From positions 2,108,001 through 2,172,000 of the forward strand of contig NW_026889772.1 of NCBI RefSeq assembly GCF_033153115.1: 64,000 nucleotides of DNA, given 5' to 3'. The translations under genes were made by a program, and so were the position numbers. Below, piece after piece: positions 24,944 through 27,900 of the stretch. Under the pieces are notes generated by a model. That model saw only the letters and a program-made list of their open reading frames with translations. It was not told the origin of the DNA and did no database searches. This DNA is from Saccostrea echinata (Eukaryota). Position 1 is the stretch's first letter; each line of letters starts with the position of its first letter.

Positions 24944-27900
24944 ATGAGCCTCTCAAGAGAGGAGCTTGCTTACAAGGCAAAGTTGGCCGAACAAGCTGAA
25001 AGGTATGATGATATGGCAGACGCTATGAAAAAATTGGTGGAAAACTACAAACCGCTCACCAATGAGGAACGAAACCTGCTGTCAGTTGCGTGCAAGAATG
25101 TTGTTGGTGCGCTTCGATCTTCTTGGAGAGTTATATCCAGTATAGAATCGAAAACAGACTCAACCGAAAAGAATCTAGTTATAGCCTCAGCTTACAGAAG
25201 TAAAATTACAGAAGAACTTAAAAACATTTGCAATGATGTTCTGGTAAGTTAAAAACGTGAGTTCAAATATCATTGTATGCATATGTTTCATTTATGAAGA
25301 TATATTGCTTTTAAATGACATTTGCAATGCTTGTCCTCCCTGACACTGTTATGGTAAAGGGTAAATGGCAGCTTTGTATGAAAGGGTTGCAAGAATGTGA
25401 TGCATAATAAAGATGATTCATAAATAGGGCTAAACACCTGTTACCAGAGAATAAATTAGGCATGTCTTGCTCTCACAAAATATGCACTTAAAATTGTCAT
25501 TGGGATCTTATTTAACAATATTTAGTGTTTGACTATAATGAGCTTAACCAAAATTGATTGACATAAACATTCAACATTATTTTCCCAAAAATTATATTAA
25601 GTTGACCAAAGGCAATAAATCTGTTTCAGAGCTTCAGATAAAAATTAACACAAGTATATTCATTCATTTATAAATCAGTGAATCACATTAAAATGTAATT
25701 TAATCAAAACAATTTTTAGAATTACGTATACTTGAGAAATATTTGATAGATGAGGAAAATTAACAATTCAGAAATATAAAGATGCTAAATGCAAACAATA
25801 TGAGAACACTGACATTAGAGATATATAGCTTAGTTTTCTATTTAAAAAGGAAGGGAGATTACTGTAAGTTGTTATTTGGCAGAAGTTCTCCACCAAAGAT
25901 GAAAAGAATGGTAAGAAATGAGGCATGTCAACAGGTGTCCATGAGTTGTCTTTTGCTGTGCACCACATCTGATTTAAAAATTTGATTCTTTTCTCAATAT
26001 ATATAATTTATATATATTTAACAGGAGAGGAGAAAAATGTTATGACTAGATCGGGATTCCAACCTGGAGGAGGAATGTGGCTGTCAGACGGATTTGCTTG
26101 CCAGTGGCCAGATAGCTCAGTTAGTAGAGCACCTGACTGGAGATTCAGGGGCCCCGGGTTCCAATCCCGGTCTGGTCCATCGCATTTTTCTCCCCTCCTG
26201 TTATGTGTCATTGCCATGCCCTGGAAGTGACAGGTGAAAGACCTGCCAGGGTAGGAGCCTGGGGTGGTGTCTTCAAGTGCCAAAGACCTTTAATGAGGGA
26301 GAAATGTGGCAGTCAGACAGGTTCAGATAACTCAGTTGGCCAGATAACTCAGTTGGTAGAGCACCTGACTGGAGATTCAGGGGGCCCAGGTTCAAATTCT
26401 ATTTTAGTCAAGCAAAAGACAATTCAACACACCTGTGGCAAAATGATGTACAGTAAAACACGCTAATAGCGAACACACTTGTAATGAATTGACACTTATA
26501 GCGAATTGATTTTCATTGCCCGTGGGTTTAAACATACTGTTAAGCTATATGGATATAACGAATTACATTTATAACAAAGCAAAATCACCTGTACCTGGCA
26601 CTTCGTTATAAGTGTGTGTGTTACTGTAGTAACTAGACTATTCATAATATTCTTCCGTTTTCTTTCAGCAATTGTTAGATACTATAATAAAAAATGATGA
26701 TAGCGAGAAGAATAATGACATTGAGAGTAGGGTGTTTTACCTGAAAATGAAGGGCGACTATTACCGCTATCTGGGGGAGGTGTCTGATGGGGAGCAGTAC
26801 CAGGGTAAGGGAGGAGCACATTGTGTGATGATCAGACACCACTAACTTTTCTCTCTAGGGGGAGACTCCCTAATATTACTTAGGGCTGAAACGATACACC
26901 CAAAGTACATTCTCATTAACCACTGTCCTGGAGTTAAAAAGCTTTCAAGACCTAGTCAGACCTTTACAGAGTATCTCTTCATAGAATTGTAGGTATAAAA
27001 GAACAAAGAATTTTGTGTTTGGGTAATCTACTTTTATGGAAATTCAAGATTTGGAAAATTTCCTTGTCAATTTAAGTTGTGATTAGAATATACTATATTA
27101 TGTTTCTGAAAATTGAATATCAAAATTAAAAAATCTTATAAAATTGCATGACTCTGAATTGCATACTTAAGAAGTTCATTGATGAATCGTTTCACCTCTA
27201 ATTATAGCACCACTGCATAACTCTTCATAACTTTTTGAACATAAACTATAATCTGATATCTCTTGCTTAAATGTTGCATTTTTTAAAGGATTTATAAAGA
27301 ATTCTATGGAAACAATTTAAGCTATACAAAAGAAAAAATAAAACTGAAAGAAAATTTGGCTTGATTCAAAATAATGTATACACCTAATTTTTAATGTATT
27401 GTGATATATTGATATTTTGACTTGTGTATCATGGTGCATATTTACTTTTTAGCTTACCTGAGCTAAAAGTCTGATCACCTTTTGTCCAGCATGCAGCTAT
27501 CTGTCTGTCTGTCTGTAAACTTTTCAGATTTTCAACTTCTTCTCAAGAACTATTGGCCAATTTCAACCAAAGTTGGTACAAAGTATCCATAGGTCAGAGG
27601 AATTTTAAATTGTTTAATTGAATAGCTAAACCTCCATCTAAGGGGAGATAATCAAGAAAAGGCAAAATAGGGTGGGGACATAAAATAAAATTTCAAAAGA
27701 ACGATGATTTCTAAACTAATTAAATCATGGCTCTCAGGGATAGGATGGGGCCACAATAGGGAATCAAACTTTCACATTGTAATATATAAGAGTAGTCTTT
27801 AAAATTCTCCCTCTCAAGAACCACTGGAACAGAAAAAATGAAAAGTCCCCGGGGGGGGGGGGGGGGGGATTTTTTTTCTAATCATTTCAAGAACCTCAAT

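What the first reader, a model, noticed from the sequence alone, without database searches (positions are those of the whole stretch)
25721..26804. After gene duplication, paralog A fixed one splice isoform: exon 2a destroyed, exon 2b pristine
Seen: A's exon 2a has a damaged acceptor, a TAA stop and about six small insertions, while A's 2b differs from B's by one synonymous base. The regulatory intron of A has also accepted a SINE cluster in the hairpin loop and a 176-bp TA-MITE exactly between the stem and the branch region. Inference: an alternative-splicing choice converted into a dedicated paralog, with the exclusion geometry relaxing once 2a was lost.
Basis: partly seen in the sequence, partly recalled or inferred. 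Interest (0 to 1): 0.7.

Follow-up and report, generated by a model that had tools for sequence, protein, structure and literature searches.

The report
Oyster 14-3-3 duplicate lost one exon
An oyster has a second, apparently weakly expressed copy of a 14-3-3 signalling gene that lost one of two either-or exons and changed conserved binding-groove residues, so it is more likely a loosely maintained spare, its surviving exon likely re-copied from the intact gene, than a specialist for one splice form.

Summary
Two tandem oyster 14-3-3 zeta-like genes lie 28 kb apart. Copy B keeps the homologous alternative exons 2a and 2b. In copy A, 2a has six internal insertions and a TAA, 2b differs from B's by one silent base, and the intron holds a tRNA-derived repeat and a 176-bp TA-flanked MITE. 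A is real: one RNA-type run holds an A-specific spliced exon 4-5 contig, at low depth. The 'dedicated 2b paralog' reading is weak. B still makes 2b. A's protein differs from B-2b at 20 of 251 residues, 8 at near-invariant sites, including both groove asparagines (zeta N173/N224). 2b is normally the fastest-changing exon among oysters, and an outgroup run differs from A and B at about 12 intron sites where A equals B, which points to gene conversion. The stem is predicted no weaker in A, so relaxed geometry is unproven. Against simple decay: A's other exons have no indel or stop. Verdict: one-sided exon loss in a relaxed duplicate, a described outcome. Side result: the oyster exon pair is a different exon from the insect and nematode one. 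No earlier scan finding on this gene.

The parts
24944..25243 (+). Copy A exon 1 (100 codons; 7 amino-acid changes vs B incl. Y50C, R57L, K77N)
25201..25416 (+). Block near-identical to B (1 difference in 216 nt), end of exon 1 and start of intron 1; candidate conversion tract or conserved element
25334..25348 (+). Intron-1 element complementary to the 2b donor region (26800-26815); same in B; pairing only predicted and unstable between folds
25720..25910 (+). Broken exon 2a of A: 18 substitutions, 6 internal insertions, TAA at 25761-25763; residual AG at 25718-25719; donor intact
25927..25957 (+). 5' arm of the predicted intron stem, 16 nt after the 2a donor
26019..26399 (+). Fragment of a dispersed tRNA-derived tandem repeat (tRNA-like units at 26106 and 26338; inverted piece 26019-26067), in the stem's loop
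26407..26441 (+). 3' arm of the predicted stem
26451..26626 (.). 176-bp MITE with TA on both sides and inverted ends
26627..26633 (+). Candidate branch-point heptamer for 2b (A at 26632, 36 nt from the AG); predicted, not mapped
26669..26804 (+). Copy A exon 2b, 135 of 136 bases as in B
26805..26904 (+). Intron block after 2b, 100 of 100 bases as in B, then a sharp fall to about 80%
28675..28838 (+). Copy A exon 3 (H170D, N179S, Y180N; pS 0.24, pN 0.07)
29629..29724 (+). Copy A exon 4 (N230K, T232L); A-type spliced junction to exon 5 seen in run X5
29969..30028 (+). Copy A exon 5 to the stop; 3' UTR has no detectable match to B's
53114..53413 (+). Copy B exon 1
53871..54039 (+). Copy B exon 2a, intact, the form in the high-depth spliced contigs
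54056..54273 (+). Copy B predicted stem (54056-54086 with 54239-54273); shortens donor-to-branch distance from 245 nt to about 30
54322..54457 (+). Copy B exon 2b, intact and used
57385..59068 (+). Copy B exons 3-5 (57385-57548, 58669-58764, 59009-59068)

Best explanation
Copy A is a tandem duplicate of the oyster 14-3-3 zeta-like gene that lost exon 2a while B kept both exons, and it is likely a weakly expressed copy under relaxed selection whose exon 2b and flanking intron blocks were likely re-copied from B by gene conversion. Steps: (shown) duplication of the coding span, with little or no match to B's promoter and 3' UTR; (shown) 2a decayed by about one branch's worth of neutral change and two transposons entered the 2a-2b intron; (shown) the other exons kept the frame but took missense changes at invariant and variable sites alike; (inferred) the protein keeps the fold and the phosphate pocket (K51, R58, R133, Y134) but has lost both backbone-gripping asparagines, so it would bind clients weakly or differently; (inferred) conversion from B reset 2b and its flanks. 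In B, exclusion of 2a and 2b is predicted to come from a stem that brings the 2a donor within about 30 nt of the 2b branch point, backed by a frame shift when both or neither exon is used.
For: 20 of 251 residues differ; none of 12 other oyster sequences has A's residue at any of them; 8 fall at sites at least 95% conserved in 147 non-oyster proteins, against 2 of 47 changes (both Y/F) in three other oysters' orthologs. Outside 2b, 8 of 117 invariant and 6 of 54 variable sites changed, no significant difference (p=0.38). 23 nonsynonymous to 15 synonymous changes fits neutral change in A if silent changes split evenly between branches (p=0.74). 2b carries 23 of 47 ortholog changes but 0 of A's 20. 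Outgroup DNA run X6 sides with B at 17 of 18 listed exon 1/3 sites where A and B differ, yet differs from both copies at about 12 sites in the two intron blocks where A and B differ at 1 (read from piece counts; p about 0.002 if changes split evenly). A-type spliced contig depth 3.9 against 1282 for B-type in the same run. B's CRE-like and YY1-like motifs (names recalled) are disrupted or absent in A's upstream alignment.
Against: No indel or stop in 620 nt of A's non-2b exons where about 6-12 indels would be expected under neutrality (p=0.0009-0.004): the frame has been protected. If most silent changes are on A's branch, dN/dS is about 0.4 and below 1 (p=0.018). The near-identical blocks coincide with the predicted RNA elements and are split by an old-looking MITE, so conversion needs at least three or four tracts; selection on RNA elements in A would explain this more simply. 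The outgroup argument rests on one run and on counts, not on listed sites. Contig depth is a poor measure of expression and only 5 RNA-like runs were laid.
Confidence: 0.55

Rival explanations
1. One reading: A is a dedicated producer of the 2b isoform, kept by selection, and the exclusion geometry relaxed after 2a was lost.
For: 2a alone is broken while the frame elsewhere is intact; 2b has 0 amino-acid changes where about 5 are expected from the other exons (p=0.005); A is spliced; the database model of A has only 2b; with the MITE unfolded the donor-to-branch distance is 208 nt, not 29; transposons are excluded from such introns in OGDH (PMC7969005, abstract and passages).
Against: B still makes 2b; the shared exons of A lost invariant residues, so its product is not the 2b isoform; no A-type exon 1 or exon 3 contig and no A-type 2b-to-exon-3 joint in 6 runs (contigs can drop rare forms); stem arms kept and predicted stronger.
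Confidence: 0.15
2. A is a new kind of 14-3-3: selection keeps its frame, fold and phosphate pocket while the groove was remodelled, giving changed client choice or a half-blind partner that damps B in heterodimers.
For: Frame protected; K49/R56/R127/Y128 equivalents kept while both N173 and N224 equivalents changed; N230K and T232L are seen in a spliced contig from a second study.
Against: Changes also hit positions expected to be structural (Y180N, H170D, R57L; roles recalled) and are spread evenly over conserved and variable sites; 7 of the 20 changes are at asparagines, so a double hit is not very unlikely; no A-type protein from another species in two searches and the clusters read; low depth.
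Confidence: 0.17
3. 2b and its flanks are kept in A by purifying selection on RNA elements (stem, branch point, intron blocks), for instance to keep the broken 2a out, with no conversion.
For: Identity is high exactly at the stem arms, branch region, 2b and two intron blocks and low in the loop; the broken 2a still has an AG and a good donor; stem pairing probability 0.84 in A.
Against: An orthologous run differs at about 12 sites in the two blocks where the paralogs differ at 1, so A would be more constrained than B's own ortholog while its protein drifts.
Confidence: 0.1
4. The broken 2a, or copy A as a whole, is an assembly or consensus artefact.
For: All six internal indels are insertions (table 4); no A-type contig covers 2a.
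Against: 18 substitutions accompany the indels; several insertions are slippage-like duplications; A-type contigs from two studies match the assembly elsewhere at 98-99.6% over 200-316 nt; intron divergence of 17-23% is far above allelic levels (typical allelic level recalled).
Confidence: 0.03

Closest known systems
Splice isoform separation after gene duplication (Abascal, Tress, Valencia 2015, PMC4494069; first sixth of the text and passages read)
   Same: Homologous mutually exclusive exons, one lost in a duplicate. The paper names the in-between case, in which one duplicate keeps both exons and the other loses one, as common.
   Different: True separation there needs each paralog to keep a different exon; here B keeps both, and A's shared exons are degenerate.
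Loss of duplicated exon 5 in SCN-alpha paralogs (bioRxiv 10.1101/2025.08.16.670673; abstract and one results section read)
   Same: Paralogs of a gene with an either-or exon pair lose one exon independently; intronic RNA elements are shared between paralogs.
   Different: Ancient, conserved vertebrate paralogs; A is known from one species and is accumulating changes at invariant sites.
Insect 14-3-3 zeta mutually exclusive exon cluster (Yang et al. 2011, seen only as cited in PMC6071210 and PMC4691838 passages)
   Same: Same protein family, tandem homologous alternative exons, RNA structure implicated.
   Different: In the insect and nematode models aligned here the duplicated exon is the next one (oyster exon 3), and insects use a downstream docking site with selectors; the oyster pair is exon 2 with a predicted single stem inside the intervening intron. 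Likely an independent origin.
Steric exclusion: OGDH 4a/4b (PMC7969005, abstract and passages) and Dscam exon 17 (Yue et al. 2013, title and one citing sentence only; paper not held)
   Same: Donor-to-branch distance under about 50 nt blocks splicing of the intervening intron; for Dscam 17 in combination with RNA structure.
   Different: In the oyster the linear distance is 245 nt and falls to about 30 only if the predicted stem forms; not tested.
XP_061182720.1, '14-3-3 protein gamma-like' of Saccostrea echinata (P0089)
   Same: Letter for letter the product of A through 2b: the gene model is already in the database.
   Different: The label says nothing of the lost exon or the changed groove; the gene is a copy of the neighbouring zeta-like gene, not a gamma ortholog.

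Membership tests
Splice isoform separation (subfunctionalisation) | Ancestral gene had both homologous exons | tested here: met
   2a and 2b isoforms annotated in Saccostrea, Crassostrea/Magallana and Ostrea
Splice isoform separation (subfunctionalisation) | One paralog lost one exon | tested here: met
Splice isoform separation (subfunctionalisation) | The other paralog lost the other exon | tested here: not met
   B has intact 2a and 2b; B-type contigs of both
Splice isoform separation (subfunctionalisation) | The paralog preserves the ancestral isoform's protein under purifying selection | tested here: not met
   8 of 20 changes at near-invariant sites; frame kept, so not wholly neutral
14-3-3 family | PF00244 domain, nine-helix fold | tested here: met
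   312 bits against a cut-off of 33; nine helices, mean pLDDT 79.6 (the model leans on the alignment and says nothing about function)
14-3-3 family | Phosphate pocket K49, R56, R127, Y128 (zeta numbering) | tested here: met
   K51, R58, R133, Y134 unchanged; numbering from PMC9523730 passage and the offsets to chain 1a37_A
14-3-3 family | Backbone-binding Asn173 and Asn224 | tested here: not met
   N179S and N230K; Asn in 146 of 147 non-oyster sequences at each
14-3-3 family | Phosphopeptide binding and dimerisation | not testable with these tools
   needs a binding assay
Unprocessed pseudogene | Frame-breaking change in a constitutive exon, or no transcript | tested here: not met
   open 251-codon frame; spliced A-type contig
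Gene-conversion tract | Paralogs closer to each other than to the ortholog within the tract, the reverse outside it | tested here: inconclusive
   pattern seen with one outgroup run, from piece counts; no outgroup genome could be fetched
Structure-assisted steric mutual exclusion | Donor-to-branch distance under about 50 nt when folded | tested here: inconclusive
   29-31 nt predicted in B, fold z=-3.5; branch point unmapped; no cross-species covariation available
TA-type MITE | Short, non-coding, terminal inverted repeats, TA duplication, many dispersed copies | tested here: met

The most novel reading that the evidence does not exclude
Copy A is a young natural 'half-blind' 14-3-3: it kept its frame, fold and phosphate pocket but replaced both universally conserved groove asparagines, is locked to the minor 2b loop, and works as a specificity-shifted reader or a damping heterodimer partner of B in some tissue or stress state; and B's exon pair is a second, independent invention of either-or splicing in 14-3-3 zeta, enforced by a stem that folds a 245-nt gap down to about 30 nt.
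Probability: 0.15. Interest if true: 0.6.

Novelty: new member of a known kind. Interest (0 to 1): 0.3.

Why it matters
One-sided loss of an alternative exon in a duplicate is a described outcome, and the gene model is in the database, so the main result is ordinary. It is a useful caution: a pristine exon next to a ruined one need not mean selection, because conversion from the neighbour gives the same picture. Two things are worth keeping. The A/B pair is a ready natural mutant for testing a stem-assisted steric exclusion model (same stem, with and without a 176-bp fold-back insert at the branch site). And the oyster-wide exon 2 pair appears to have arisen apart from the insect and nematode pair; my searches found no paper on it, though most subscription papers and all supplements were unseen.

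Tried and rejected
Outgroup genomic DNA: a pattern scan and a protein scan of metagenome contigs gave no oyster locus (0 matches; 80 loci at 65-72% identity), so no cross-species covariation of the stem could be counted; those loci served only for the conservation profile. snoRNA or other RNA family in the conserved intron blocks: no Rfam match near threshold in B (4 weak matches, best E 0.82); only tRNA-like matches in A. Further copies of the 2b block in the genome: only A and B. The other 14-3-3 loci: two intronless genes on C54 keep both asparagines; the C30 match was not examined. Absence of A-type exon 1, broken 2a and exon 3 contigs in 6 runs is not taken as proof of absence. Absence of A-type contigs in DNA run X6 (another organism code) is only a hint that A is missing there. 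X1 contigs that join B-type and A-type parts through shared sequence (records 3, 4) are not counted as evidence of A splicing, as they may be assembly chimeras. Pairing of the intron-1 element with the 2b donor: probability 0.00 in B and 0.58 in A, not relied on. Haplotype duplication artefact rejected (17-23% intron divergence, both types in one run). The structure model was uninformative on function. No complex prediction was sent, as a 14-3-3 dimer would pass by likeness to solved structures. A search for papers on 14-3-3 paralogs lacking groove residues returned one plant review, listing only. Lambert et al. 2015 (PMC4417111) was seen as a listing only. Earlier scan notes: nothing near, nothing by sequence, 8 unrelated exon-pair notes by words.

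Full report
What the locus is. A self-comparison of the window shows two colinear copies of one gene 28 kb apart. Spliced by coordinates they encode 14-3-3 proteins. The nearest database proteins are oyster 14-3-3 zeta-like isoforms. The product of copy A through exon 2b is identical to P0089, labelled '14-3-3 protein gamma-like [Saccostrea echinata]', and the product of B through 2b is P0088, identical in S. echinata and S. cucullata. Both 2a and 2b isoforms are annotated in Saccostrea, Crassostrea/Magallana and Ostrea, so the exon pair is older than the gene duplication. No A-type protein from another species appeared in two searches or in the 8 clusters read. Similarity between A and B runs from just upstream of the start codon to just past the stop; the 3' UTRs give no match and the upstream regions align only weakly.

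The observation. It is accurate. A's 2a has 18 substitutions and 6 internal insertions (17 nt, no deletions) against B's 169-nt exon, a TAA at 25761-25763, and an altered acceptor, though an AG and the donor survive. A's 2b differs by one silent base. The MITE is exactly 176 bp with TA on both sides and belongs to a dispersed family. The 'SINE cluster' is a truncated piece of a dispersed tRNA-derived tandem repeat that replaced part of the loop. Both inserts are about 15% from the nearest copies scored (40 candidates of about 1,500 each), so they look old, but this is a weak date.

Is A real and expressed? I laid 6 of 22 listed runs, all as contigs. In the three spliced runs the high-depth contigs (390-1280) were all B-type and joined exon 1-2a-exon 3; 2b contigs had depth 4-11. 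B-type 2b contigs occur in X2, X3 and X5. One contig in X5 is A-specific and spliced from exon 4 to exon 5 (GT..AG; 56 and 257 letters on the two sides, one other letter each; depth 3.9 against 1282 for the B-type), so A is transcribed and spliced there, and its N230K and T232L changes are not assembly errors. A-type intron contigs occur in X1. No A-type contig covers exon 1, the broken 2a or exon 3, and no A-type 2b-exon 3 joint was seen; contigs drop rare forms and depth is a poor measure of expression.

The protein. A differs from B-2b at 20 of 251 residues. In an alignment of 161 distinct sequences (held proteins of 225-290 residues plus 79 of 80 metagenome loci), none of 12 other oyster sequences has A's residue at any of these sites, and 8 sites are at least 95% conserved among 147 non-oyster proteins: Y50C, R57L, K77N, H170D, N179S, N213S, N230K, T232L; Y180N removes an aromatic found in all 147. 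N179 and N230 correspond to Asn173 and Asn224 of human zeta, which hold the phosphopeptide backbone; the phosphate pocket residues are unchanged (PMC9523730 passage; offsets). Orthologs from three other oysters differ from B-2b at 11, 10 and 26 sites with 0, 2 and 0 at such positions (these are not independent). Outside 2b, invariant and variable sites changed at similar rates (8 of 117, 6 of 54). Pairwise dN/dS is 0.39; on A's branch it lies between about 0.4 and 0.9 by my arithmetic, depending on where the silent changes fall (tests p=0.018 and p=0.74). Against plain decay, the 620 nt of non-2b coding sequence have no indel or stop, where 6-12 indels would be expected. A is therefore neither a faithful 2b isoform nor a dead pseudogene.

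Why is 2b pristine? Unconstrained introns differ by 17-23% and exon 3 silent sites by 24%, but 25201-25416 differs at 1 of 216 bases and 26657-26904 at 1 of 248. Among oyster orthologs 2b is the most variable exon (23 of 47 changes) yet holds none of A's 20. DNA run X6, from another organism code, sides with B at 17 of 18 listed exon 1 and 3 sites where A and B differ, but its pieces over the two intron blocks carry about 12 further differences where A and B agree (records 25 and 28; counts, not listed sites). This flip is what conversion between A and B predicts (p about 0.002 under an even split). The weak points are a single outgroup, the need for several tracts around the MITE, and the match between the blocks and the predicted RNA elements, which selection on RNA in A would also give.

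The exclusion geometry. In B a stem pairs 54056-54086 with 54239-54273 (fold z=-3.5; mean pairing probability 0.79) and would cut the distance from the 2a donor to the candidate branch A from 245 nt to 29-31, below the threshold of about 50 nt given in PMC7969005. Using both exons or neither shifts the frame (exon lengths), a second safeguard; database models in four species do list a form with 2a plus a 2b shortened by 10 nt, whose support I could not check. In A the arms are kept and the duplex is predicted stronger (-39.9 against -33.6 kcal/mol). The repeat in the loop folds on itself (0.90). The MITE's ends pair in the intron-only fold (distance 22) but only at 0.21 in the longer context (distance 208 if open). 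Relaxation is thus plausible for the MITE but unproven, and the order of events is unknown.

Comparison with what is known. Abascal et al. (PMC4494069) define splice isoform separation as each paralog keeping a different exon and note that many cases are one-sided like this one; SCN-alpha paralogs show the same. The case fails the reciprocal-loss and preserved-protein criteria. The known 14-3-3 zeta exon cluster of insects, and the duplicated exon in the insect and nematode models aligned here, is the next exon downstream, so the oyster pair likely arose separately. Two searches found no paper on it; supplements were not read and most subscription papers are not held.

Verdict. Observation confirmed; interpretation partly supported. 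Most likely a relaxed, weakly expressed duplicate with one-sided exon loss and conversion (0.55); remodelled 14-3-3 with a new role 0.17; dedicated 2b paralog 0.15; selection on RNA elements without conversion 0.10; artefact 0.03. New member of a known kind; interest 0.3.

Noticed in passing
window 54458-54511 and 26805-26858: 54 nt after the 2b donor, both copies have a consensus-like branch motif, a pyrimidine run and an AG; exon 1-2b contigs in X1, X2 and X3 run on into this intron instead of exon 3. Read-through ends 14 codons after 2b. Possible retained intron, poison acceptor or short terminal form.
   Followed up: partly
window 53504-53518 with 54453-54468 (A: 25334-25348 with 26800-26815): An intron-1 element is complementary to the 2b donor region (duplex -28.8 kcal/mol, against -9.9 with the 2a donor); could keep 2b minor. 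Not stable in the whole-region fold of B.
   Followed up: partly
window 25720-25910 and 24885-24943: All six internal indels in the broken 2a, and two in the 5' leader, are insertions in A; one creates a perfect donor motif at 25864. The bias is unexplained.
   Followed up: no
window 54332: A second AG 10 nt inside 2b gives an in-frame 2a+2b form (304 aa) annotated in four oyster species; RNA support not checked.
   Followed up: partly
window 2026-3783 and 10957-12702, minus strand: Two tandem B-box/NHL (TRIM-like) genes, 91% identical; the first is split by a stop near 3265, the second has an open frame of 581 codons.
   Followed up: partly
L089 and L090 (G000:C54:19959800-19971000): Two divergent intronless 14-3-3 genes 10 kb apart on opposite strands, both with the groove asparagines.
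   Followed up: partly
window 26019-26399; L006-L008: The tRNA-derived repeat occurs as tandem units of about 230 bp, in some copies with an inverted leading piece; the tRNA-like part has an 8-nt anticodon loop. Family not named here.
   Followed up: partly
window 34134-35423, 35719-36517, 5556-6070, 60956-61793: Tandem arrays with periods of about 166, 92, 86 and 140-150 bp.
   Followed up: no
run X1, records 3 and 4: Contigs joining B's loop to A's MITE, and exon 1-2b to A's downstream intron: assembly chimeras or a recombinant allele.
   Followed up: no
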